A stretch of DNA of 10,294 nt from a virus. Position 1 is the stretch's first letter, and every line of letters begins with the position of its first letter. Where the stretch lies: UHGV virus genome UHGV-0227205. One strand, 5' to 3'. The notes under the pieces were generated by a model. It saw nothing but the letters and a program-made list of their open reading frames with translations, had not been told where the DNA came from and searched no databases. Shown here in pieces: positions 1 to 10,294 of this stretch. A program made the translations under genes and the position numbers.

Positions 1-2
1 CT

Positions 3-218
3 GCCACCCCGTGTCAGCAGGGAGACTGCGTCATCCACCGGGCGCGTCAGGGACCAGGCTTTATTGCTCTGCTTGGTGCTGGCCCGGCATTCCAGGTCAT
101 AAAAGACAGTCTGACACTGGGGCTGAATGCGCTGACGTTAACTGATATCACTAAAAATGCCGCGTACGGCGTCGATATCGGCAGCCTGGTGCTGGAAATC
201 AATAATCCCGCAGCATAA
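3..218 (+). CDS. Hypothetical protein, C-terminal fragment (5' end outside window)
   Basis: Frame 3 is open from the first base of the window to TAA at 216-218 (71 codons, no in-frame stop; the other two plus frames hit stops at about 97 and 143). Same strand as the R-like gene and 23 bp upstream of it; an AGGAG-like RBS for R (227-231) follows its stop. No family recognised from the fragment (ends ...SLVLEINNPAA). In P2 synteny this position is the lysis-gene end of the operon, but the fragment does not look like an Rz/LysB coiled coil. Confidence 0.3.
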   Translation, partial: ATPCQQGDCVIHRARQGPGFIALLGAGPAFQVIKDSLTLGLNALTLTDITKNAAYGVDIGSLVLEINNPAA

Positions 219-241
219 GGAAGAGCAGGAGAGCAAAACAG

Positions 242-709
242 ATGCTTAAGACAAACAGTCTGCGAGAGTCCATGCTTCATGGGTGTCGGTGGTGCCAGGC
301 TAATCCCGAGAAATTCACCATTTTCGTGGAGAGCGGCAACATTGAAACGACCGGAGAAGCGCCCTCGTTTGTTTACCGCTATCAGATGGTGATGTTTGTC
401 ATGGATTACGCCGGAGAGCTGGACGACCTCACGCTGCCGCTGCTGGCGTGGTTATCCGAAAATCAGCCACAGTTGTTGCTCAATCCGGAGCGTAATCAGG
501 ACATCAAATTTTCTGCCGTTATCAATGACGATGACAGCGCCGATCTCCTGTTTACGCTCCCCCTGCGGGAACGCGTTCGCATCACGCGCAACAGTCAGGG
601 CACACCGCAGGCAGAACACCTGCCGGAGCCAAAACCCCGTCTGCCTTCTTCCGAAGGCGACTGGTCGCATGTATTCCAGGATGTGACGTGGGGTGAAAGC
701 GATGGATAA
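242..709 (+). CDS. R: P2 gpR-like tail completion protein
   Basis: 155-aa ORF with ATG at 242 preceded by an AGGAG-like RBS. N-terminus MLKTNSLRE... and length resemble P2 gpR as I recall it. Sits immediately upstream of S-V-W-J-I-H in P2 gene order. Stop overlaps the next start (ATGGATAA). Confidence 0.7.
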   Translation: MLKTNSLRESMLHGCRWCQANPEKFTIFVESGNIETTGEAPSFVYRYQMVMFVMDYAGELDDLTLPLLAWLSENQPQLLLNPERNQDIKFSAVINDDDSADLLFTLPLRERVRITRNSQGTPQAEHLPEPKPRLPSSEGDWSHVFQDVTWGESDG

Positions 710-1337
710 GGCATTCACCCGCGTGGATGAAACCTTTGAGGCTATCCGCGACAGCCTGAATCAGCAGGCCATCAATAACATCGCCAGAAAGCTGGCACAG
801 GATTTACGTCGCGCCCAGCAGGCACGTATCCGGTCACAAAAAGCGCCGGACGGGACCGAATGGACACCACGCAGACGCCGCGTAACCCGGATACAGGAGC
901 GCATTCGCTTTATCTGGAATAACGAAGCACGCACGCTGAAAAACTGGCATCACGACACAGGGAAATACGGGCGAACCATTACCGGGTGGGATGAGGATAA
1001 AAACAATATCCGCACGTTTTACCGGGATGACATCGACCGTTTTCTGGAAATACGCACCCGGCGCATCAACCAGGACAGCACAAAGCGCGTCCCCATGTTC
1101 GTAAAACTGCGCACCGCCCGCTACCTGAAAGCCCGTGCAGATGCCTCCGGTGTGACGGTGGGTTACAGCGGCGTGGCCGCACGTATTGCACGCGTTCATC
1201 AGTTCGGTGAGCGCGATCAGGTTGCGCCGGGCATTTTCACCGATTACCCGGTACGTGAGCTGTTGGGTATCAGCCAGGCAGATGAGCGCCTGATTTATAA
1301 CACGGTGCTGGGCCGGATTGCGGAGGCTGTACGGTGA
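702..1337 (+). CDS. S: P2 gpS-like tail completion / virion morphogenesis protein
   Basis: ORF in P2-syntenic position between R and V. ATG at 702 overlaps the R stop; an alternative GTG start at 693 is possible. Basic, Arg-rich protein. Family assignment is by synteny and size rather than recalled motifs. Confidence 0.65.
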   Translation: MDKAFTRVDETFEAIRDSLNQQAINNIARKLAQDLRRAQQARIRSQKAPDGTEWTPRRRRVTRIQERIRFIWNNEARTLKNWHHDTGKYGRTITGWDEDKNNIRTFYRDDIDRFLEIRTRRINQDSTKRVPMFVKLRTARYLKARADASGVTVGYSGVAARIARVHQFGERDQVAPGIFTDYPVRELLGISQADERLIYNTVLGRIAEAVR

Positions 1338-1915
1338 GCGCAGAACTCATGCGACTGCTGAGCAACATCATCCGCACCGGGATCATCTCTGAAGTTGATG
1401 AGAAGTCCTGGCGCGTGCGCGTTCGCAGCGGCGAACTGGAAACAGGCTGGTTGCGCTGGAACACCACGCGCGCGGGAGCCTTCAATGTGTGGCTGCCGCC
1501 ATCACCAGGCGAACAGGTGGTAATTGCCTGCATTGGCGGCAACCCGGAAACCGCCATGATAATTGGCAGCCTGTGGAGTGATGCCAGTCCGGCCCCCGGC
1601 AAAAGCCTGAAAGAAATCGTGGTCAGCGCGCCGGATGGCGCGGTGTTCCGCTACGACGCAGACGCTGGCGCACTGAGCGCCAGCGGCATGAAAACAGCCA
1701 CCCTGCAGGCATCCGTCAGCGTGACACTGGATACGCCCGTCGTGGAATGCACAAACCTTCTGAGAACGGCGACGCTTGACGTCACAAAAGAGGGAAAGAT
1801 GAGCGGCAATATCACGCACAGCGGCGGCAATTTCACCTCAAACGGCATTACCGTGCATACGCATAAGCACGGTGGCGTTAAAGGTGGCAGCGATTCGACA
1901 GGAGGCCCGCAGTGA
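1334..1915 (+). CDS. V: Baseplate assembly protein V (spike/hub), P2 gpV-like
   Basis: 193-aa ORF; GTG start at 1334 overlaps the S stop (GTGA), with an alternative ATG at 1349. Motifs ...IRTGIISEVDE..., GWLRW, PSPGEQVVI, C-terminal GITVHTHKHGG and Gly-rich tail match P2 gpV as recalled. Syntenic with W-J-I. Confidence 0.9.
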   Translation: MSAELMRLLSNIIRTGIISEVDEKSWRVRVRSGELETGWLRWNTTRAGAFNVWLPPSPGEQVVIACIGGNPETAMIIGSLWSDASPAPGKSLKEIVVSAPDGAVFRYDADAGALSASGMKTATLQASVSVTLDTPVVECTNLLRTATLDVTKEGKMSGNITHSGGNFTSNGITVHTHKHGGVKGGSDSTGGPQ

Positions 1916-2262
1916 CAACCCGCTACACAGGAATGAACCCGGACGGGACGGGAAACCTGAACGATATGGAGCACCTGAAACAGTCAGTCAGGGACATCCT
2001 GATCACCCCGCTGGCAAGCCGGGTTATGCGACGGGAATATGGCAGCCTTGTGCCTGATTTGATTGACGAACCCATGAATAACACCACGCGTCTGCAATGC
2101 ATGAGTGCTGCCGTGATTGCGCTGACACGATGGGAACCCCGCATTGCCCTGGACGCCATCGACGTTGTCTGGAAGGCAGGAGGCCGCGCCGGGGTGACGC
2201 TGTCGGGCACTGTCATGCAGACCATGCAGAATGTTGAATTAACCATCACGCTGAGAGAGTAA
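1912..2262 (+). CDS. W: Baseplate wedge protein W (GPW/gp25 family), P2 gpW-like
   Basis: 116-aa ORF; GTG start overlaps the V stop (GTGA). MTTRYTGMN..., VMRREYGSL and WEPRI motifs match P2 gpW as recalled. Confidence 0.9.
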   Translation: MTTRYTGMNPDGTGNLNDMEHLKQSVRDILITPLASRVMRREYGSLVPDLIDEPMNNTTRLQCMSAAVIALTRWEPRIALDAIDVVWKAGGRAGVTLSGTVMQTMQNVELTITLRE

Positions 2263-2265
2263 ATC

Positions 2266-3162
2266 ATGCCTGCTGTTGATCTTTCCCAGTTACCGGAACC
2301 CGCCATCATCGCGGAGCCTGATTTTGAGGCAATTCTGGCTGACACAAAGGCCATGATGATTGCGTCCTATCCTGCCGAACAGCGTGAAGCCGTCTCCGCC
2401 GCGCTGGAGCTGGAATCAGAACCCCTGAACGTTATCGCTCAAACCATGTCGTTTCGTGAAATGCTGTTACGCCAGCGGGTTAACGAGGGCGCACGCGCCT
2501 GCATGTTAAGCCACGGTTCAGGGACAAACCTGGACAACCTCGCGGGCAATATGAACACAAAGCGCCTGGTTATCACTCCGGCAACGGATACCACCGACGC
2601 GGTGATGGAGAGCGACACCTCGCTGAGACTGCGGGCGCAGCGGGCGTATGACGGCCTGAGTGTTGCTGGCCCGTCAGGTGCATACGAGTATTTTGCACGC
2701 AGCGCCAGCGGTCTGGTGCGTGATGCGCGGGCCATCAGCCCGTCTCCGGCCTGTGTGACGGTTTCCATTCTGTCCACTGAAGGCGACGGCACAGCAACGG
2801 AGGCGTTGCTTAATACCGTTCGCGCCGTTCTGAATGCAGAGGATACCCGCCCGGTGGCCGACCGACTGACCGTACAGAGCGCCAGCATCGTGACATGGCG
2901 GCTGAATGCAAAACTGTACTTTTACCCCGGCCCGGAATCCGAACCTATTCTGGCTGCGGCTGAATCGTCGTTCAGGAAGTGGCTGGCTGAGCAGGGGCTT
3001 ATTGGTCAGGACGTGGCGTTGTCAGCCATTGCTGCCGCACTTCATGTGCACGGCGTGCAACGCGTGGAGATAATCGAACCCACACAGAATATGGCCATCA
3101 GCGACATACAGGCGGCGCGCTGTGAGTCATTCACCATCAGCGAAGGTGGGCGTAATGAGTAA
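2266..3162 (+). CDS. J: Baseplate assembly protein J (gp6-like), P2 gpJ-like
   Basis: 298-aa ORF starting 3 bp after the W stop. MPAVDLSQLPEP..., LESEPL, RQRVNE, SPSPACVT, RPVADRLTVQSA, YFYPGPESEPI and LHVHGVQRVEI match P2 gpJ as recalled. Stop overlaps the I start (ATGAGTAA). Confidence 0.9.
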   Translation: MPAVDLSQLPEPAIIAEPDFEAILADTKAMMIASYPAEQREAVSAALELESEPLNVIAQTMSFREMLLRQRVNEGARACMLSHGSGTNLDNLAGNMNTKRLVITPATDTTDAVMESDTSLRLRAQRAYDGLSVAGPSGAYEYFARSASGLVRDARAISPSPACVTVSILSTEGDGTATEALLNTVRAVLNAEDTRPVADRLTVQSASIVTWRLNAKLYFYPGPESEPILAAAESSFRKWLAEQGLIGQDVALSAIAAALHVHGVQRVEIIEPTQNMAISDIQAARCESFTISEGGRNE

Positions 3163-3685
3163 TTCACTGTTACCGCCATCAGCCAGCAATTTCATGCGTT
3201 GCGCCGAAGCTGTCGGAGCGCGCATTACAGACATCCCGGTAGACCTCAACACGCTGTGGTCACCGGACACCTGCCCGGTGCATCTGCTGCCTTATCTCGC
3301 CTGGGCATTTTCCGTTGACCGCTGGGATCGCAACTGGCCGGAAGAGACAAAGCGACAGGTGATTCGTGATGCATGGCTGATACACCGACACAAAGGGACC
3401 ATCAGCGCACTGCGCCGGGCCATTGAGCCGCTGGGATACCTCATTCGCGTGTCTGAGTGGTGGGAGTTCGGCGGAGAACCGGGAACATTTACCGTTGAAG
3501 TCGGCACGCTGGACAGTGGCGTGACGGAGGAAATGTATCTGGAAATGGAGCGGTTGATTGCTGATGCCCGCCCGGTCAGCCGCCACATGACAGGGCTGAA
3601 TATCATTCAGGAGATTCAGGGAGATATTTTCGCGGCGGCAGCAACTTACGACGGCGAAGTCATTACCATTTATCCGGACGATTAA
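3155..3685 (+). CDS. I: Baseplate/tail protein I, P2 gpI-like
   Basis: ATG at 3155 overlapping the J stop; the longer track ORF from 3122 is probably an upstream extension. Motifs LWSPDTCPVHLLPYLAWAFSVDRWD, HRHKGTISALRRAIEPLGYLI, EMERLIADARP and YDGEVITIYP match P2 gpI as recalled. Confidence 0.9.
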   Translation: MSNSLLPPSASNFMRCAEAVGARITDIPVDLNTLWSPDTCPVHLLPYLAWAFSVDRWDRNWPEETKRQVIRDAWLIHRHKGTISALRRAIEPLGYLIRVSEWWEFGGEPGTFTVEVGTLDSGVTEEMYLEMERLIADARPVSRHMTGLNIIQEIQGDIFAAAATYDGEVITIYPDD

Positions 3686-3687
3686 GC

Positions 3688-5031
3688 ATGAGTACCACAA
3701 CACGTAAATTTAAAACCGTTATCACCGATACGGGTGCCAAAAAATTAGCTCAGGCAGCCGCGCCAGATGGTAAGCCTGTCCGCCTGACTCATATGGCCGT
3801 GGGCGACGGTGGCGGCACGTTGCCCACACCAGACAGTAAGCAGACCCGTCTGGTGCATGAGGTGTGGCGACATACTGTTAATCGCGTCATCCTGGACGCA
3901 ACACATCAGAACCGCATTATTGCGGAGCTGGTTATTCCTCCTGAAACGGGCGGATTCTGGATCCGGGAAATTGGTGTATTTGATGAGCACGGCGATTTAA
4001 TCGCGGTGGGCAATACTGCCGAAAGTTACAAGCCAGCCGTTGCCGAAGGGTCCGGTCGTGCACAAACATTTCGCACCATTCTGACCGTATCCAGCACTGC
4101 CACCGTGGTGCTTACCGTGGATAACACCATGGTGATGGCCACAGTGGATTACGTGGATGACAAACTGAAAGAGCATGAACAGTCACGACGTCACCCGGAC
4201 GCCTCGCTGACCGCAAAAGGCTTTGTTCAACTCAGTAGCGCCACTAACAGCGTGTCTGAAACGCAGGCTGCAACGCCGAAAGCAGTAAAGGCCGCGTATG
4301 ACCTTGCTAACGGTAAATATACTGCGCAGGATGCCAGCACGACGCGAAAAGGCCTTGTCCAGCTCAGTAGCGCCACCAACAGCACGTCTGAAACGCAGGC
4401 TGCAACGCCGAAAGCAGTAAAGGCCGCGTATGACCTTGCTAACGCAAAATATACCGCTCAGGACGCCACGACGGCACAAAAAGGGATAGTCCAGCTCAGT
4501 AGTGCCACCAACAGCACGTCTGAAACACTGGCCGCGACATCGAAAGCTGTTAAGGCGGTAATGGATGAAACGAACAAGAAAGCGCCCTTAAATAGTCCTG
4601 CACTGACCGGAACGCCAACAACACCAACTGCGCGACAGGGAACGAATAATACCCAAATCGCAAGCACGGCTTATGTTATGGCTGCGATCGCTGCCCTCGT
4701 GGACTCGTCGCCTGACGCACTGAATACGCTGAACGAGCTGGCTGCGGCGTTGGGCAACGACCCGAATTTTGCGACCACCATGACTAGCGCGCTTGCGGGT
4801 AAGCAACCGAAAGATGCCACCCTGACGGCGCTGGCCGGGCTTGCTACTGCGGCAGACAGGTTTCCGTATTTTACGGGGAATGATGTTGCCAGTCTGGCAA
4901 CCCTGACAAAAGTTGGGCGGGATATTCTTGCGAAATCGACCGTTGCCGCCGTTATCGAATACCTCGGTTTACAGGAAACGGTAAACAAGGCTGGTAACGC
5001 CGTTCAGCGTTCCGGCGCATTACCGCCTTAA
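3688..5031 (+). CDS. H: Tail fibre protein H, P2 gpH-like, apparently 3'-truncated (constant N-terminal part only; possible pseudogene)
   Basis: 447-aa ORF starting 3 bp after the I stop. N-terminus (..TVITDTGAKKLAQA..MAVGDGGG..EVWRH..IIAELVIPPE..GGFW.RE.G..D..G.LIAV.N.AESYKP..AEGSGR..) matches the P2 H attachment domain. It then has three tandem repeats and a ...GIVQLSSATNSTSETLAAT.KAVKAVMDETNKKAPL...ALNTLNELAAALGNDP...VIEYLGLQETVNKAGNAVQ segment shared with lambda Stf. Recognisable sequence stops at 5007, then 7 codons (RSGALPP) and TAA. P2 H is about 670 aa as I recall, so the distal receptor-binding part appears to be missing, and no G gene follows. Confidence 0.85.
   Translation: MSTTTRKFKTVITDTGAKKLAQAAAPDGKPVRLTHMAVGDGGGTLPTPDSKQTRLVHEVWRHTVNRVILDATHQNRIIAELVIPPETGGFWIREIGVFDEHGDLIAVGNTAESYKPAVAEGSGRAQTFRTILTVSSTATVVLTVDNTMVMATVDYVDDKLKEHEQSRRHPDASLTAKGFVQLSSATNSVSETQAATPKAVKAAYDLANGKYTAQDASTTRKGLVQLSSATNSTSETQAATPKAVKAAYDLANAKYTAQDATTAQKGIVQLSSATNSTSETLAATSKAVKAVMDETNKKAPLNSPALTGTPTTPTARQGTNNTQIASTAYVMAAIAALVDSSPDALNTLNELAAALGNDPNFATTMTSALAGKQPKDATLTALAGLATAADRFPYFTGNDVASLATLTKVGRDILAKSTVAAVIEYLGLQETVNKAGNAVQRSGALPP
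4198..4563 (+). repeat. Tandem direct repeat, 132-bp (44-codon) unit, 2 full copies plus 1 partial, in frame within H
   Basis: Copy 1 at 4198-4329 (DASLTAKGFVQLSSATNSVSETQAATPKAVKAAYDLANGKYTAQ), copy 2 at 4330-4461 (DASTTRKGLVQLSSATNSTSETQAATPKAVKAAYDLANAKYTAQ), copy 3 at 4462-4563 (DATTAQKGIVQLSSATNSTSETLAATSKAVKAVM, then diverges into DETNKKAP). Copies are near-identical at nucleotide level by eye. Confidence 0.9.
4480..4563 (+). repeat. Inverted repeat, left arm (H repeat core KGIVQLSSATNSTSETLAATSKAVKAVM)
   Basis: 84 nt at 4480-4563 align codon for codon with the reverse complement of 5018-5101 (stf KGIVQLSSATNSTSESLAATPKAVKAVM). I count 70/84 identical, with the last 15 nt (GTTAAGGCGGTAATG) identical. 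Confidence 0.8.
4952..4977. other. Candidate Din-family (Gin/Cin/Pin/Hin-type) invertase crossover site, orphan
   Basis: TTATCGAATACCTCGGTTTACAGGAA at 4952-4977. As I recall, Mu gixL is TTCCTGTAAACCGAGGTTTTGGATAA; its reverse complement TTATCCAAAACCTCGGTTTACAGGAA differs from the window at 2 of 26 positions. The site is 12-bp half-sites around a central TC dinucleotide and lies inside the H codons VIEYLGLQE. No second site in inverted orientation and no invertase gene were found in the window by eye. Confidence 0.6.
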
Positions 5032-6496
5032 CCGCTTTTGGCGTTGCCGCCAGTGACTCGGAAGTGCTGTTGGTCGCACTGCTGAGCTGTACTATCCCCT
5101 TTTTCGTCGTGCTCGCATCCTCAAGCGCCACGGCGGATGCAATATCCTCTGCCCGTTTTGCCGCTGTCTCGGCGCGCGTTGCCGCGGATTCCGCCGTACT
5201 TTTGCTCTGAGCTGCCGCCGTCGCACTGCCAGCTGCCTCTGTCGCCTTCGTGGATGCCGTCGTGGCGCTGCCCTTTGCTGCTGACGCCTGTCTGGTCGCC
5301 TCATCTTTTGAAGCAGACGCAGATGATGCCGATGACGCCGCTGAACTGGCTGACGATGCGGCTGCCGCCTTAGAGGAAGCAGCATTGTCTGCTGAAGTCT
5401 TTGCATTTGTTTCAGAGGTTTTTGCTGCAGAAGCAGACCTCGCTGCTGCAGTGGCTTGCTCAGTGGCTTTGCCAGCCTTCGTTGTGGCTGTTGAAGCGGA
5501 TGATGCGGCGCTTTCTGCCGATTTTCCGGCGGCGGTGGCACTGGCTGAGGCCTGCCCGGCACTTGTTGACGCGGCACTGGCAGATAATGCAGCCGCTGTT
5601 TTTGAACCTGCCGCAGCTGAGGCGCTCTGTCCCGCTGCTGTTTCAGAAGACTTAGCGTTCGTCTCGGACGTTTTTGCCGCCTTCGCGGAATTTCCTGCCG
5701 CCGTTGCCGAGGAAGCTGCACTACTGGCACTTGATGATGCATTCGTTTCTGAAGATTTCGCTGCCTCTTTTGAGGCCGCCGCACCCCGTGCCGAGGTGGC
5801 AGCTTCTGACGCCTTCGTGGTCGCTGTGGATGCAGAAGTGGCTGCCGATTTTTGTGATGCTGCGGCATTCGTTTCTGACGTTTTCGCGGCACTGGCGCTG
5901 GTAGCTGCCGCGCTTTTTGATGACTCTGCAGCAGCAGCACTTTTTGCTGCTTCACGGGCCTTTGTCGATGCCGTTCCTGCGCTGGAAGACGCTGACTGAG
6001 CCGACGACGCGGCCTGTCCGGCTGACGTGCTGGCGGCACGTGATGAGGCTGCAGCATCGGTTGCATGAGTTGCCGCCTCGCTGGCTGATGCACTGGCATC
6101 GCTGGCTGATTTTTTCGCGGCTGCCGTATTCTGTGCAACCGCGGAGGCGTTACGTGACACCTCTTCTACCATCTGCTCAAAGCGGCGCAGTGCCTCCGGT
6201 CGTACATCATCCTCCGTCATGGCACCGAGAAAATCATTCAGCGTACCTGGTCTGGAACCTTCATAGACGGTAATGGTCCCGGCATGTGAAGGCGGAAAAC
6301 CTTCAACCAGCAGGGTGACGCTGTACTGACCATGCTCAACATCCATGCTGTAACGTCCGGCTTCATCCGGATTTTCAGAGGCCACCGTGTTCACCACCAC
6401 CGTGCTGCTGGTTCGTCTGGCCTTCAGCACAATGGTGCAGTTCTGTACTGGTTTTCCTGTGCCATCTTTAAGCACGCCAGAAATTTTTACTGTCAT
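4952..6496 (-). CDS. stf: Side tail fibre protein, lambda Stf-like, apparently 3'-truncated (N-terminal and shaft part only; possible pseudogene)
   Basis: 514-aa minus-strand ORF with ATG at 6494-6496 and a GGTGGA RBS. N-terminus MTVKISGVLKDGTGKPVQNCTIVLKARR...YSMDVEHGQYSV...GFPPSHAGTITVYE...GTLNDFL is almost identical to lambda Stf as recalled. It continues into the Ala/Ser-rich shaft with KTSETNA repeats and then ...AVALEDASTTKKGIVQLSSATNSTSESLAATPKAVKAVM. The last 21 codons (RRNAERRYQPCLPFPVNRGIR) are the antisense of the H 3' end, not Stf sequence. Lambda Stf is about 770 aa as I recall; the C-terminal receptor-binding part and tfa are absent. Confidence 0.85.
   Translation of the reverse strand: MTVKISGVLKDGTGKPVQNCTIVLKARRTSSTVVVNTVASENPDEAGRYSMDVEHGQYSVTLLVEGFPPSHAGTITVYEGSRPGTLNDFLGAMTEDDVRPEALRRFEQMVEEVSRNASAVAQNTAAAKKSASDASASASEAATHATDAAASSRAASTSAGQAASSAQSASSSAGTASTKAREAAKSAAAAESSKSAAATSASAAKTSETNAAASQKSAATSASTATTKASEAATSARGAAASKEAAKSSETNASSSASSAASSATAAGNSAKAAKTSETNAKSSETAAGQSASAAAGSKTAAALSASAASTSAGQASASATAAGKSAESAASSASTATTKAGKATEQATAAARSASAAKTSETNAKTSADNAASSKAAAASSASSAASSASSASASKDEATRQASAAKGSATTASTKATEAAGSATAAAQSKSTAESAATRAETAAKRAEDIASAVALEDASTTKKGIVQLSSATNSTSESLAATPKAVKAVMRRNAERRYQPCLPFPVNRGIR
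5018..5101 (-). repeat. Inverted repeat, right arm (stf KGIVQLSSATNSTSESLAATPKAVKAVM)
   Basis: Reverse complement of 5018-5101 matches 4480-4563 at about 83% identity. The arm begins exactly where recognisable stf coding sequence ends (ATG codon at 5018-5020 on the minus strand). Confidence 0.8.
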
Positions 6497-6647: not shown

Positions 6648-7247
6648 TCAGAAACGGTATCCGATACCAACAATAAATGCATCCGTTCGCCAGTCGCCAC
6701 TACCGGAACCTTCATAAGCAAGGTCAATGGTCACGGATTCGGTCGGGTTAAACTGCACGCCAGCCCCCCACGCCAGAGACGTGTTGCTGTGGCGACCGTC
6801 ATCACTTCCGGTCAGCACATCGTGCTTTTTCCCCTTGTTGTCAGTTACGCGAAGATAATCCCCGGAGAAAGTCGACACACGGCTGTAAGCCACACCCGCC
6901 ATCGCATACGCGCTGAACCATTCATTCACGCGCACAGACGGCCCCGCCATTACGCTGAACCAGCGGTTACGAACGGAATCTTCATGCCAGCGGGTATCGC
7001 TGTAACGGGTCAGCTGGCGATTCTTGTCTCCTGCATAGCTGAACGACGTCTCCAGCCCCAGTGTGTCCGTAAACTCATAACGGTATTTCACGTTAATCCC
7101 GTTCAGATCATCACTGCCGGGAACGTTCGTCGAGGCATGAAGATAGCCCGCGCTCAGCGTGGACTGATGTTCAGACGCCCATGCAGGCGCACCGGATACG
7201 GCCAGACAGATGGCTGCGGACAAAATGGCGGCATAAAGTTTACGCAT
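6648..7247 (-). CDS. lom: Outer membrane beta-barrel protein Lom (Ail/Lom/PagC/Rck/OmpX family)
   Basis: 199-aa ORF with ATG at 7245-7247 and a GAGAGG RBS. Signal peptide MRKLYAAILSAAICLAVSGAPAWA with AWA cleavage motif. C-terminus ...LAYEGSGSGDWRTDAFIVGIGYRF closely matches lambda Lom as recalled and ends in an aromatic residue typical of OM beta-barrels. Sits in the lambda J-lom-stf position. Confidence 0.9.
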   Translation of the reverse strand: MRKLYAAILSAAICLAVSGAPAWASEHQSTLSAGYLHASTNVPGSDDLNGINVKYRYEFTDTLGLETSFSYAGDKNRQLTRYSDTRWHEDSVRNRWFSVMAGPSVRVNEWFSAYAMAGVAYSRVSTFSGDYLRVTDNKGKKHDVLTGSDDGRHSNTSLAWGAGVQFNPTESVTIDLAYEGSGSGDWRTDAFIVGIGYRF

Positions 7248-7268
7248 AATTACCTCTCGCTTTTCTGC

Positions 7269-7296
7269 AATAAAAAAGGCGTCATTCCTGACGCCC
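7269..7296 (-). terminator. Putative intrinsic terminator between J and lom
   Basis: On the minus-strand transcript: GGCGTCA-GGAA-TGACGCC hairpin (7-bp GC-rich stem, 4-nt loop; plus coordinates 7277-7294) followed by TTTTTTATT (revcomp of 7268-7276). Lies 22 bp after the J stop and before the lom RBS. Confidence 0.7.
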
Positions 7297-7317
7297 TTTA
7301 TTGGGGTTATAAATATT

Positions 7318-10294
7318 TCAACGAATACTGATGCCGGAAGCGGCTTTTTTGGTCACAATCACCGTACAGTCGGTGATATTGCCTGCCCCCTGATTGCCTT
7401 TCTGGAAAATCTTAAACTCCAGAGTGACGCTTCCCCTGCCACTCGGCATATCAATAACTGCACTGTAACTACCGGGAATGGCCCCTTTAGTTTCTCTGGA
7501 TGCGATTAATACGCCGTTTTTGCGAACTTCAAAACCATAACCCGTGTATCGCGTGCCTCCTGGGTTATTTCCGCTCCCCGGATCGTCATACGCTATACCG
7601 TTAAAAATAATGGGCGGAATAATAATCTGGCGGTCAAAGTTATGATCATCGCTGATGGTGACTGTAACCGTACCGTTTGGTGTTTCCGTGTTACCCCACG
7701 TACCGACTTTTTTCGGGAAGGCTTTTGATACAGCTTTAACGAAATCTCCTCTGACCTGGGTCGCCTCCAGCATGCCCTTAATCGTACAGTTCTGGTTAAT
7801 CGTGACATTGTTGAGCGTTCCTGAGTTCGCATTCACACTGCCACTGATATCCACATTTTTCGCCGTCAGTCTCCCGTCTGATGTCAGGGAAAATGCCGGA
7901 GGATTACCGCCGCTGGTAATGGTGGGGGCCGTCAGGCGTTTCAGGAACACTTCATTCATGAATATCTGATCGCCCTGACCAACAAACATCGGCTTTGTGT
8001 TGCCATTCGCAGGATTAATCATCGCAATCCTGTCTGCCGCCAGCAGCACCTGACTCTGCATTCCTGCTGGCGTATTCTCAATACCGGCACCGATACCCGC
8101 AATATAAAGGCGTCCGTCCTGCATCTGCTGCAGTTTCACGGCCCACATGCTGTTCAGGTTATTATTTGTATCAACCTGAACTTTCTGTATCTGCTGGATT
8201 GCCGCACTCTGATTTTCCAGTTTTTTATTGACGGTCTGCGTGATTTCATTGCTGACATTCGTAATGGACGTCCTGATTTCAGCCAGGTCCGGCGCAAGCT
8301 GACCGTTATCAATCTGCGTCCACAGCTCCTGGGCCAGATGTGTTTTCCCGATTTCTCCTTTGAAAAAATCCAGGTAACCTTCCGCATCATCGCTCGCCCG
8401 ACCGACAGCCTCCACGAATGCCGATTTGCCAACAGTATTCACACTGCGGATATAAAAATAATAATCATGGCCCGGTTTGATATTGATACTGGCAGCTATC
8501 CAGTACAGCGCCGAGCCAAGATAGCGGGCTGCGGTTTCAACCTGCCTGATATCCGCAATCCGCTTTTCCGAGAACCAGAACTCAAACTGTACCGTCGGGT
8601 CATAAACGGCAAGATGTGGCGTTGCGGTTATCTGAAAATAGCCCGGCGTCAGCTCAATCCGCGACGGTGCTGCCGGTGCGGCAATCCGGAAGGTGGTGGT
8701 GGCAGGTTCACCCTGCTGGCCATAGCTGTTTATCGCCCGCACCGTCAGGGTGTATTCCCCGAGCGGCAGGCCGCTGAAACGGTGCTCCGTGTCTGCGGTG
8801 ATGGCGGTGGTCACCAGTCTGGCATCCGTTCCCTTACCACTGGTCAGGCGCAGACTGAAGCGCACACCCTTCACCACCCGCGGCGTGTCCCATTTCGCCT
8901 GCGCCAGATACTGGCCGTCAGCTGCGCTCACCTCCACCGTCAGGTGCTGCACTGCCGGTGGGATGACGCTGTTCAGGGAACCTGACTGCGGCTCAAAGCG
9001 GGCACCGTTATCCACGATGGCTTCTTTTTCCGGTACGTGCTGCACCGCCGTGATGGCAAAGGTGCCGTCCGTGTTTTCCCGGATGGAGACACAGCGGAAC
9101 AGGCGACGGCGCAGTGACGGCAGGGAGAGTCCCCACACCCCGTATGTCTCCACACCATCAGGCAGGGTACTGACCTGTATCCGGTCCGGCGCGGGGTGTG
9201 CGGTGATGTCCACACTCACCGGCTTACCGCTGCCGTTAATCAGGTTCACCGCCGATGTACCTGTCTCCGGCAGGGTAACCTCACGGTCCAGCGTCAGGGT
9301 GCGGGTGGCAGCATCAATGGACAGGACACGTCCGCCGGTCAGGGTCCCGGCATAGTCATTATCACAGATTTCAATAATGTCACCGGGTGTGTGCCGCAGC
9401 CCCTGAGACCCGAGCGTGAAATCCACCGTCTGCGTTTCCAGCAGTTCGGTCTTTATCACCCACAGTCCGGCACGGTGGGCCTGACCGCGGCTGGTACAGC
9501 CGAACGCGTCCATCTTCAGCAGGTTGCGTCCGTAGCGCAGTATGGCTTCCGGGTCTTCCACCAGTTCCGTGGAGGTCTGCCAGCCGTTCTGCGGGTCGGT
9601 GTAATTCACCTCCACCGCCGTGTGCCGGTCCTTCAGGGCACTGAAGCTGTAGCGGAATCCCACGCCGTTATCATCCACCACCACATCGCTGTTGGTGTAC
9701 GGCCACACCACATCCGACGGGCGGTCCTGAACGAACGTCAGCGTCTGACCGTTCCATACCGGCATACAGCGCATCGCAGAGCAGAAATCACTGAGAACGT
9801 CCCACGCCTTACGCTGTTGTGCCAGGTACGCATTAAAGGTCATCCGCGGCTCGGTCCCCCCGAAACCATCCGGGACCGTCTGGTCGCAGTACTGCCCGAT
9901 GGCATACAGCGCCCACTTGTCCACATCCGCCGCCCCCAGACGTTTTCCCATGCCGTAGCGCGGGTGAGTCAGCATGTCCCACAGACACCAGGCCGGGTTG
10001 TTGCTGTATGCCGGTTTCAGACTGCCGTCCCAGATACCACTATACGTGCGTTTTTCCGGGTCATAGTTTGACGGCACCTGGATGATGCGACCGCGGATAT
10101 GGTAGTTCACCGTCATCTGCTGGCCGCCGAACTGCTCCGCATCCACCTGCAGCCCCACAATGGCCGTGTTCGGGTAGCACTGTTTCACATCGATGATTTC
10201 GGTGTATGACGACCACAGCGTCTTATTCTGCAGCTGGTCCGTGGTGCTGTCCGCCGTCTCCCTGACCATCCGGATGTTAAAGGGCCGGGGAGGC
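7318..10294 (-). CDS. J: Host specificity / tail tip protein J, lambda J-like (central tail fibre); 5' end outside window
   Basis: Minus-strand frame open from the window end (translation ...[44 protein letters not shown]...) to the stop at 7318-7320, at least 992 codons. Long stretches ([191 protein letters not shown]) match lambda J as recalled. The ATG at 10267-10269 is internal, not the start; lambda J is about 1130 aa. Confidence 0.92.

What the first reader, a model, noticed from the sequence alone, without database searches (positions are those of the whole stretch)
4480..5101. Imperfect inverted repeat (84 nt, about 83% identity) bracketing the H 3' end and abutting the breakpoint
The core of the third H repeat (4480-4563) recurs in inverted orientation in stf at 5018-5101, where both encode KGIVQLSSATNS.SE.LAAT.KAVKAVM. 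The stf arm begins at the very first base of recognisable stf sequence beyond the breakpoint. The arms flank a 454-bp spacer (4564-5017) that encodes the H segment also found in intact lambda Stf (DETN...NAVQ). Inverted homology of this size can mediate RecA-dependent inversion, promote deletion via foldback or template switching, and cause assemblers to mis-join contigs. Its position suggests the shared fibre module had a role in creating the junction.
Basis: seen in the sequence. Interest (0 to 1): 0.5.

Follow-up and report, generated by a model that had tools for sequence, protein, structure and literature searches.

The report
Inverted tail-fibre repeat at chimeric junction
The inverted repeat is real, but it is only the same conserved tail-fibre protein motif present in two different prophage genes that this sequence joins tail to tail, and the join itself has no homology, occurs in no other public sequence searched, and is probably a chimeric artefact.

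Summary
The inverted repeat exists: 70/84 identical (83%) at the stated coordinates, extending to 104 nt at 80% (4460-4563 / 5018-5121), E = 9e-21. Both arms encode one Pfam PF03406 tail-fibre repeat unit, and 16 of 22 differences fall at third codon positions, so the similarity is protein conservation.

The window is a mosaic of two E. coli ST131-type prophages: a P2-like one (EC958 Phi1 type) and a lambdoid one (Phi4 type). In fact 4566-5017 is 100% identical to the Phi4-type stf gene. It is the missing continuation of the truncated stf, in the opposite orientation and fused in frame to H. The H-to-stf switch lies in a 107-bp identical stretch (4566-4672), not in the arms, and one independent metagenome contig has the same switch. 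The spacer also holds the Phi4 26-bp invertase crossover site (4952-4977).

The breakpoint 5017/5018 is blunt, mid-codon and without microhomology. It is absent from 5,426 complete E. coli genomes and three contig collections. A second blunt inverted junction lies at 77/78. The arms' longest exact match is 15 nt, so they are poor RecA substrates. The repeat is ordinary, and the junction is probably an artefact or a private rearrangement.

The parts
1..77 (-). Inverted fragment of the P2-like prophage DUF6645 gene, joined bluntly (1 shared base) to the collinear prophage sequence that starts at 78
   Evidence: Window 1-78 is the reverse complement of JJ1887 L002 5628-5705 (100%), and 78-4972 matches L002 6001-10895. 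No complete E. coli genome spans this junction. Metagenome contigs L010 and L012 both end at the position equivalent to window 83.
3688..5031 (+). Truncated hybrid tail-fibre ORF H' (447 aa): P2-type N-terminus and three repeats, then stf-type distal constant region, then 15 codons of variable segment, then 4 junk codons and a stop
   Evidence: ORF list. Pfam PF12571 plus three PF03406 units. The exact protein is not on record.
4195..4590 (+). Three tandem 132-bp (44-codon) tail-fibre repeat units in H
   Evidence: Direct repeat families D1 and D2, translations, three PF03406 stretches. Contig L010 has only two units.
4460..4563 (+). Left arm of the inverted repeat (third H repeat unit), P2-type allele
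   Evidence: 104/104 identical to the JJ1887 P2-like H and 83/104 to stf.
4566..4672 (+). 107-bp stretch identical in P2-type H and lambdoid stf: the interval in which the sequence switches from the H allele to the stf allele
   Evidence: The last P2-specific base is 4565 and the first stf-specific base is 4673. The same switch occurs in contig L010.
4566..5017 (+). 452-bp block 100% identical to the stf gene of the ST131 lambdoid prophage (EC958 Phi4 type, flipped state). It is sense on the + strand, i.e. inverted relative to the stf 5' part at 5018-6496
   Evidence: 100% over 452 nt in strain 4/1-1, EC958 and many other complete genomes, annotated as prophage tail fiber N-terminal domain-containing protein.
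4952..4977 (+). 26-bp DNA-invertase (Din family) crossover site TTATCGAATACCTCGGTTTACAGGAA
   Evidence: Identical to the Phi4_5prime site in Table 3 of Forde et al. 2014 (PMC4134206). JJ1887 and 4/1-1 differ by a half-site swap at this site. It is the only such site in the window.
4973..5017 (+). First 45 nt of the invertible variable segment (ETVNKAGNAVQRSG), cut within the next codon
   Evidence: Identical to JJ1887 L001 2527-2571. Natural genes continue ATAAAATGACC (DKMTGEL) in L009, L010 and L014.
5017..5018 (.). Breakpoint: blunt tail-to-tail junction with no microhomology
   Evidence: Three-way alignments. Absent from the complete E. coli genomes and from the viral, genome and metagenome contig collections.
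5018..5121 (-). Right arm of the inverted repeat (single PF03406 unit of stf), lambdoid allele
   Evidence: 100% to JJ1887 stf and to L005. PF03406 with E = 3.8e-19 when the natural peptide is scanned.
4952..6496 (-). Truncated stf' ORF (514 aa). Genuine stf is 5018-6496 (493 codons); the last 21 codons read the antisense of the H' 3' end
   Evidence: ORF list, Pfam PF08400. The exact protein is not on record.
6648..7247 (-). Intact lom gene
   Evidence: ORF list. The exact protein occurs on four metagenome contigs. In ST131 complete genomes lom is interrupted by ISEc12.
7318..10294 (-). Lambdoid tail tip gene J, 3' part (runs off the window)
   Evidence: ORF list. Annotated gpJ in JJ1887.

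Best explanation
The inverted repeat has no function of its own. It is a by-product of placing two homologous tail-fibre genes tail to tail.

Each arm is the last 'phage tail fibre repeat' unit (Pfam PF03406). The left arm comes from a P2-type H gene (EC958 Phi1 type). The right arm comes from a lambdoid stf gene (EC958 Phi4 type).

The 454-bp spacer is the conserved distal constant region that follows this unit in both gene families. It ends in the 26-bp crossover site of the tail-fibre DNA invertase and the first 45 nt of the invertible variable segment.

In this window the spacer is the stf allele. It is fused in frame to H through a 107-bp stretch that is identical in the two genes. This is a homologous exchange or gene conversion of a kind that independent gut-metagenome contigs also show.

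The spacer then stops in mid-codon and abuts, with no shared base, the antisense of the rest of the same stf gene. This blunt junction was not made by the repeat.

The junction is most likely a chimeric join, either an assembly or scaffolding error or a library artefact in a region with two long, nearly identical and invertible repeats. A second junction of the same kind lies at 77/78. Less likely, it is a private illegitimate rearrangement.

Shown: the anatomy, the allele assignment, the exchange interval, the crossover site, and the absence of the junction from the collections searched. Inferred: that the junction is an artefact. The confidence given (0.6) is for the whole statement. The by-product reading of the repeat alone I put at about 0.85, and the artefact reading of the junction alone at about 0.55-0.6.
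For: - Arms: 83/104 identical, E = 9e-21. Both are PF03406 units. 16 of 22 differences are at codon position 3, and 13 differing codons are synonymous against 6 non-synonymous.
- Mosaic origin: window 78-4972 matches the JJ1887 P2-like prophage, and 5018-6872 matches the JJ1887 lambdoid prophage at 99.9%. The two loci lie about 526 kb apart on that chromosome (coordinates).
- Allele switch: the only 20 mismatches to the P2-like prophage in 78-4972 are the 20 stf-type SNPs at 4673-4947, and the window is P2-type up to 4565.
- Spacer identity: 4566-5017 is 100% identical to stf in many ST131 genomes, 2 nt downstream of the end of the part that matches 5018... in reverse.
- Crossover site: it equals EC958 Phi4_5prime, and both prophages are known to carry invertible tail-fibre segments (PMC4134206). 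A half-site swap distinguishes JJ1887 from 4/1-1.
- Independent exchange: contig L010 has the identical H-to-stf switch and continues naturally past 5017. L012 and L013 carry a shorter stf-type patch (4673-4787). L011 carries P2-type bases in an stf gene.
- Natural continuations exist on both sides of the breakpoint (L010, L009 and L014 on the left; L005 and L001 on the right), and they share no base at the junction.
- The junction is absent from 5,426 complete E. coli genomes, IMG/VR, GTDB species representatives and JGI metagenomes. Both junction-spanning proteins are absent from the gene index.
- A second blunt inverted junction at 77/78 is also absent from all complete genomes. It lies 5 nt from the shared end of two independent metagenome contigs.
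Against: - No reads or assembly graph are available, so an artefact is inferred, not shown.
- The positions 5017 and 5018 do not fit simple de Bruijn unitig boundaries for common k values (my own calculation from the SNP positions).
- Amplification (MDA) chimeras of this inverted, nearby type usually show at least 2 nt of complementarity (93.5% of them when under 10 kb apart, PMC1855051). Here there is 0 and 1 nt.
- All three pieces are about 100% identical to natural sequences. That is equally expected for a very recent real event.
- A complete genome (strain 4/0) shows two P2-like tail modules facing each other, so tail-to-tail prophage junctions do occur in nature.
Confidence: 0.6

Rival explanations
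1. The junction is a real, private illegitimate rearrangement. One form is a deletion between a P2-like and a lambdoid prophage that lie convergently near each other in the source strain. Another form, on an ST131-like map, is the novel joint of a roughly 526-kb tandem duplication. Either would leave both tail-fibre genes truncated. The inverted repeat would again be only a retained piece of homology.
For: Only one non-homologous event is needed if the H gene already had the L010-type stf-like 3' region. Both flanks are about 100% natural. Strain 4/0 carries two P2-like tail modules tail to tail in a finished genome. Both window halves map to the same strand of JJ1887, which fits a duplication-type joint.
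Against: The junction occurs in none of 5,426 complete genomes or three contig collections. It has no microhomology and cuts a codon. A second, unrelated blunt inverted junction 5 kb away would need a separate event. On an ST131 map the alternative to a duplication is loss of megabases (inference from the coordinates).
Confidence: 0.28
2. A replication template switch made the structure in one event. A nascent strand copying H invaded the inverted homologous stf region through the 107-bp identical stretch and copied 345-452 nt. It then made a U-turn onto the opposite stf strand without homology.
For: The pattern is one homology-driven junction (4566-4672) followed by one homology-free junction a few hundred bases on, in inverted orientation. 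The single strand can fold with the arms paired (minimum free energy -159.7 kcal/mol, z = -6.8).
Against: The H-to-stf switch exists on its own in L010 without the U-turn, so the two junctions need not be one event. There is no microhomology to prime the second switch. The model does not explain the junction at 77/78.
Confidence: 0.07
3. The original junction was stf (contiguous up to ...NAVQRSG) joined to H cut right after KAVKAVM. RecA-dependent recombination between the two arms then flipped the 454-bp spacer into the present state.
For: Inverting 4564-5017 restores a contiguous natural stf of 648 codons and shortens H to 313, with the two junk tails simply exchanged. The spacer is the stf allele.
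Against: Both arms are pure: the left arm is P2-type and the right arm stf-type at all 21 differences. A crossover would therefore have to lie in the 15-16 identical bases at the inner ends. Bacterial recombination needs a block of strict identity given as at most 30 bp (PMC8918686), and I recall it as roughly 20-30 bp from Shen and Huang 1986. Base 4565 is P2-type. L010 shows the H-to-stf fusion without any such junction. The model still needs a homology-free primary junction.
Confidence: 0.04
4. The tail-fibre DNA invertase (Phi1-type Din-family serine recombinase) made the junction by recombining a true crossover site with a quasi-site.
For: A perfect Phi4-type crossover site lies in the spacer (4952-4977). 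The P2-like prophage of ST131 encodes an intact invertase with Resolvase and HTH_7 domains. The Phi1 and Phi4 sites are nearly identical.
Against: The breakpoint lies 40 nt beyond the end of the site. Real inversion products show half-site swaps at the core, as between JJ1887 and 4/1-1. No shared central dinucleotide exists at the two parental breakpoints (sequences). The H-to-stf switch is at 4566-4672, not at the site. The window has no second site and no invertase gene.
Confidence: 0.01

Closest known systems
Invertible tail-fibre regions of E. coli ST131 EC958 prophages Phi1 (P2-like) and Phi4 (lambdoid), Forde et al. 2014, PMC4134206
   Same: The window's two halves are these prophage types. 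The 26-bp site at 4952-4977 is identical to the Phi4_5prime site. The stable 5' gene part carries PF03406 repeats followed by an invertible 3' part. The flip state of the 4973-5017 segment matches strains such as 4/1-1 and EC958.
   Different: The window holds only one crossover site, no invertase, no tail-fibre assembly gene and no alternative 3' segment. The inverted repeat in the finding is not the invertase's inverted repeat. The 5017/5018 junction is not at a crossover site.
Shared sequence modules between P2 gene H, lambda stf and the Mu, P1, e14 and p15B fibre genes (Haggard-Ljungquist et al. 1992, recalled from memory; Sandmeier 1994, cited within PMC4134206)
   Same: The same conserved repeat unit and distal constant region occur in an H-type gene and an stf-type gene. 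There is evidence of exchange between them: the switch at 4566-4672 and the patches in L011-L013. Phage records with gpH (Wphi, P88) and side tail fibres (PhiR26_1) match the two halves.
   Different: In those phages the modules sit in intact genes. Here both genes are truncated and face each other.
Inverted chimeric junctions from whole-genome amplification or assembly (Lasken and Stockwell 2007, PMC1855051)
   Same: [quoted passage not shown] That is the dominant class of MDA chimera (85% inverted, most under 10 kb apart).
   Different: Microhomology is 0 and 1 nt, whereas 93.5% of such chimeras have at least 2 nt. There is no evidence that the source DNA was amplified.
Chromosomal rearrangement through co-resident prophage tail-fibre regions (example: strain 4/0, NZ_CP023849)
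   Same: Two phage tail modules face each other across a tail-fibre region.
   Different: That case is in a finished genome, involves two P2-like prophages and retains a tail-fibre assembly gene. How it arose was not analysed here.

Membership tests
Pfam PF03406 phage tail fibre repeat (coding repeat) | Each arm encodes a unit that matches the PF03406 profile above its cut-off | tested here: met
   H': three stretches, 204.8 bits in total. Natural stf peptide across the arm: 68.4 bits, E = 3.8e-19, profile positions 1-41 of 42.
Pfam PF03406 phage tail fibre repeat (coding repeat) | Similarity is maintained at the protein level (differences concentrated at synonymous positions) | tested here: met
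   16 of 22 nucleotide differences are at codon position 3. 13 differing codons are synonymous against 6 non-synonymous.
Din-family invertible tail-fibre segment (Mu G, P1 C, e14 P, EC958 Phi1/Phi4) | Two 26-bp crossover sites in inverted orientation bound the segment | tested here: not met
   Only one site is present (4952-4977). No second match with up to 7 mismatches occurs in the window. The arms of the finding show no similarity to the site.
Din-family invertible tail-fibre segment (Mu G, P1 C, e14 P, EC958 Phi1/Phi4) | Adjacent serine invertase gene, plus alternative 3' fibre segments with assembly genes | tested here: not met
   No such ORFs occur in the window. They are present in the natural loci L001, L002 and L009.
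Din-family invertible tail-fibre segment (Mu G, P1 C, e14 P, EC958 Phi1/Phi4) | Recombinant junctions lie at the site core (half-site swap) | tested here: not met
   The half-site swap is seen between JJ1887 and 4/1-1. The window's breakpoint is 40 nt past the site.
Inverted repeat able to support RecA-dependent inversion | A block of strict identity of the minimal processing length (at most 30 bp per PMC8918686; roughly 20-30 bp from memory of Shen and Huang 1986) | tested here: not met
   The longest exact run in the arms is 15 nt. The 107-bp identical stretch lies in the single-copy spacer, not in both arms.
Hairpin- or cruciform-forming quasi-palindrome | Arms pair in the predicted single-strand fold more stably than in shuffled sequence | tested here: met
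   The minimum-free-energy fold pairs 4460-4563 with 5018-5121; z = -6.8 against 20 shuffles. The 454-nt loop makes extrusion from duplex DNA unlikely (inference).
Amplification-type (MDA) inverted chimera | Inverted join of segments under 10 kb apart | tested here: met
   Offsets are 454 nt (stf) and 373 nt (DUF6645 gene).
Amplification-type (MDA) inverted chimera | At least 2 nt of complementarity at the junction (93.5% of cases) | tested here: not met
   0 nt at 5017/5018 and 1 nt at 77/78. The reference value comes from PMC1855051.
Assembly mis-join at a repeat | Reads do not span the junction; depth anomaly in the shared block | not testable with these tools
   No reads or graph are available. 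Indirect evidence: the junction is absent from every collection searched, and two independent contigs end 5 nt from the 77/78 junction.

The most novel reading that the evidence does not exclude
The window records a real, very recent recombination between two co-resident prophages of a gut E. coli. The first step was a homologous switch from the P2-type H gene into the lambdoid stf gene within a 107-bp identical stretch. The second was a homology-free U-turn back into stf. This would be a template-switch signature in which shared tail-fibre modules seed a large duplication or lock both prophages as fibre-less remnants.
Probability: 0.12. Interest if true: 0.4.

Novelty: already known. Interest (0 to 1): 0.15.

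Why it matters
The finding matters mainly as a caution. Tail-fibre genes of P2-like and lambdoid prophages in one genome share long, nearly identical and invertible segments. Sequences through them are therefore prone to both real exchange and false joins, and an inverted repeat next to such a join should not be read as its cause.

The useful positive result is small. Allele tracing shows ongoing patchwise exchange between H and stf in natural E. coli populations: a 107-bp identical stretch acts as the exchange point, and conversion patches appear in independent contigs. If the junction were real, it would be one more example of prophages driving chromosome rearrangement, which is already well known.

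Tried and rejected
- Invertase-mediated origin. Rejected because the breakpoint is 40 nt beyond the crossover site, there is no shared central dinucleotide, and genuine flip products show half-site swaps.
- Arms as the crossover point. Rejected because both arms are allele-pure and the switch lies at 4566-4672.
- The spacer as the H gene's own 3' end. Rejected because it is 408/409 identical to JJ1887 stf against 389/409 to JJ1887 H, and 452/452 identical to the stf of strain 4/1-1.
- 5017 as a natural mosaic boundary. Rejected because ST131 stf, the ETEC1706 H gene and L010 all run straight through it.
- De Bruijn unitig ends as an explanation for positions 5017 and 5018. My calculation from the last distinguishing bases gives k = 58 for 5017 and no sensible k for 5018, so this is not supported.
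- Search for the source or a second copy of the junction. The exact junction pattern gave 0 hits in the viral, genome and metagenome contig collections. The proteins H' and stf' are not on record. The phage collection gave no hit across the junction.
- IMG/VR relatives. 64 contigs sharing a J-gene 66-mer are all 90% identical or less to the right half.
- Strain 1428_w1_hybrid, the best-scoring match to the left half. It differs only by an indel and has the normal arrangement.
- Simple in-place inversion of 4564-5017 or of larger blocks as the sole change. Rejected because re-inverting still leaves a P2-to-stf junction (reasoning).
- The plasmid collection was not searched.

Full report
**Observation.** The inverted repeat is present as described.
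- Positions 4480-4563 and the reverse complement of 5018-5101 are identical at 70 of 84 positions (83%).
- The match extends to 4460-4563 / 5018-5121 at 83 of 104 (80%). The longest exact run is 15 nt, at the inner ends.
- A BLAST of the window against its own reverse complement gives E = 8.9e-21 for this pair. The other two H repeat units also hit the same stf arm, more weakly. Every other inverted match in the window has E of about 1 or worse.

**What the arms are.**
- H' (3688-5031) carries the P2-type N-terminal fibre domain and three 44-codon units of Pfam PF03406, the 'phage tail fibre repeat'.
- The stf arm is one more unit of the same family: 68 bits when the natural peptide is scanned alone.
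- 16 of the 22 nucleotide differences between the arms lie at third codon positions. 13 differing codons are synonymous and 6 are not.
- The similarity is therefore conservation of a protein motif in two homologous genes, not a DNA-level signal.

**Where the pieces come from.** No complete E. coli genome (5,426 searched) holds the window as such. Its halves match two prophages of ST131 strains.
- In JJ1887, window 78-4972 matches the P2-like prophage near 960 kb.
- Window 5018-6872 matches the lambdoid prophage near 1,485 kb at 99.9%.
- Both lie on the same strand of the record, about 526 kb apart.
- These are the Phi1 and Phi4 prophages of EC958. Forde et al. [quoted passage not shown] Phi4's own invertase is truncated, and the authors suggested that the Phi1 enzyme may act on the Phi4 sites in trans (PMC4134206).
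- The right half is 100% identical over 2,998 nt to a metagenome contig (L005) that continues naturally through stf.

**The spacer is the stf allele, not the H allele.** A three-way comparison shows the following.
- The window follows the P2-type H allele up to base 4565.
- It follows the lambdoid stf allele at all 20 diagnostic positions from 4673 to 4947.
- Those 20 positions are the only mismatches to the P2-like prophage in the whole of 78-4972.
- Window 4566-5017 is 100% identical over its full 452 nt to the stf gene of many ST131 genomes. In strain 4/1-1 it starts 2 nt after the end of the segment that matches window 5018 onward in reverse.

The 'spacer' is therefore the missing continuation of the truncated stf gene. 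It lies in the opposite orientation to the rest of that gene and is fused in frame to H.

**The invertase site.** The spacer contains TTATCGAATACCTCGGTTTACAGGAA at 4952-4977. This is identical to the published Phi4_5prime crossover site. It is followed by the first 45 nt of the variable segment in the 'flipped' state. JJ1887 and 4/1-1 differ by exactly the half-site swap expected of invertase action.

**The exchange between H and stf.** The switch lies in a 107-bp stretch (4566-4672) that is identical in the two genes. It is not private to this window.
- Metagenome contig L010 has the same P2-type arm, the same 20 stf-type bases, the same crossover site and variable segment, and then continues normally (DKMTGEL..., assembly gene, inverted alternative segment).
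- Contigs L012 and L013 carry a shorter stf-type patch (4673-4787) inside an otherwise P2-type H gene.
- Contig L011, an stf gene, carries P2-type bases at two positions.
- No complete genome has the full hybrid: the best match to 4400-5017 is 96.5%.

Patchwise exchange between the two fibre genes thus occurs, through the near-identical distal region and not through the 80% arms.

**The breakpoint.**
- The left side ends at 5017, one base into the Asp codon that follows ...NAVQRSG.
- The right side begins at 5018, with the last base of the stf ...KAVKAVM codons read in antisense.
- Natural continuations are known for both sides: L009, L010 and L014 on the left, L001 and L005 on the right. They share no base at the join.
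- 5017 is not a natural mosaic boundary.
- An exact 43-nt pattern across the join is absent from IMG/VR, the GTDB species representatives and the JGI metagenome contigs.
- Both junction-spanning proteins are absent from the gene index.

**A second junction of the same kind.** Window 1-77 is the reverse complement of a piece of the P2-like prophage's DUF6645 gene that normally lies 296-373 nt upstream of base 78. It is joined with one shared base. No complete genome spans this junction. Two independent metagenome contigs (L010 and L012) both end 5 nt from it, which suggests an assembly-graph branch point there.

**Mechanism and rivals.**
- *Role of the arms.* The arms did not mediate the join. 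They are allele-pure on both sides, and their longest identity (15 nt) is below the block of strict identity that bacterial recombination needs. That block is given as at most 30 bp in PMC8918686, and I recall it as roughly 20-30 bp from Shen and Huang 1986.
- *Flipping the spacer.* Inverting 4564-5017 would simply exchange which gene is the longer one: H 313 and stf 648 codons, instead of 447 and 514. A homology-free junction would still be required.
- *The invertase.* It cannot account for a break 40 nt outside its site with no shared core dinucleotide.
- *Single-strand folding.* As single-stranded DNA the region folds with the arms paired (z = -6.8), so fold-back is physically possible. There is no priming microhomology, however.
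- *A real rearrangement.* On an ST131 map, a real junction would have to be the novel joint of a roughly 526-kb tandem duplication. The deletion alternative removes most of the chromosome. Otherwise the source strain would need the two prophages close together and convergent. A finished genome (strain 4/0) does show two P2-like tail modules facing each other, so such arrangements are not impossible.
- *An artefact.* Two blunt inverted joins occur within 5 kb. Each joins pieces that are about 100% natural. Neither is seen anywhere else. One sits at a recurrent contig end. Together these point, in my judgement, to a chimeric sequence from assembly, scaffolding or library preparation. Amplification chimeras are mostly inverted joins of nearby segments (85%), but 93.5% of those show at least 2 nt of complementarity (PMC1855051), which is not met here. 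The specific artefact therefore remains unidentified.

**Verdict.**
- It is wrong on three points: which gene the spacer belongs to, where the exchange happened, and whether the repeat explains the breakpoint.
- The repeat itself is an ordinary consequence of known tail-fibre modularity.
- I put about 0.55-0.6 on the junction being an artefact, and about 0.35 on a real private rearrangement of some kind.
- Reads from the source would settle this.

Noticed in passing
window 1-78: A second blunt inverted junction. Bases 1-77 are the reverse complement of a DUF6645-gene piece that normally lies 296-373 nt upstream of base 78 in the P2-like prophage. No complete E. coli genome spans it, and metagenome contigs L010 and L012 both end at the position equivalent to window 83.
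   Followed up: partly
window 4952-4977: A 26-bp DNA-invertase crossover site identical to the published EC958 Phi4_5prime site. Strains JJ1887 and 4/1-1 hold the lambdoid prophage's invertible segment in opposite states with swapped half-sites, although that prophage's own invertase gene is truncated.
   Followed up: yes
L012 and L013 (equivalent to window 4673-4787); L011 (equivalent to window 4565 and 4787): Short patches of the stf allele inside P2-type H genes, and of the H allele inside an stf gene, in independent human-gut metagenome contigs. This suggests recurrent gene conversion between the two fibre genes.
   Followed up: partly
window 4195-4590; L010 4133-4400: Copy number of the 132-bp H repeat varies: three units in the window and in ST131 genomes, two in contig L010.
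   Followed up: no
window 6648-7715: lom is intact here, whereas ISEc12 interrupts it in ST131 complete genomes. The lom / J 3' region is only 85% identical to JJ1887 or unmatched (7356-7715). It is 100% identical to metagenome contig L005, so the lambdoid prophage is a variant not present in the complete-genome set.
   Followed up: partly
L003 12683-18323 (E. coli strain 4/0, NZ_CP023849): In a finished genome, two P2-like tail gene clusters face each other across a single tail-fibre assembly gene and partial fibre genes. This is a natural tail-to-tail arrangement of prophage tail modules.
   Followed up: no
window 430-561 (gene at 242-709): Contig L012 lacks exactly 132 nt (44 codons) of this phage tail gene relative to the window.
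   Followed up: no
window 5140-6140: The stf gene has a long Ala/Ser-rich low-complexity region with degenerate internal repeats (direct repeat families D3, D4, D9).
   Followed up: no
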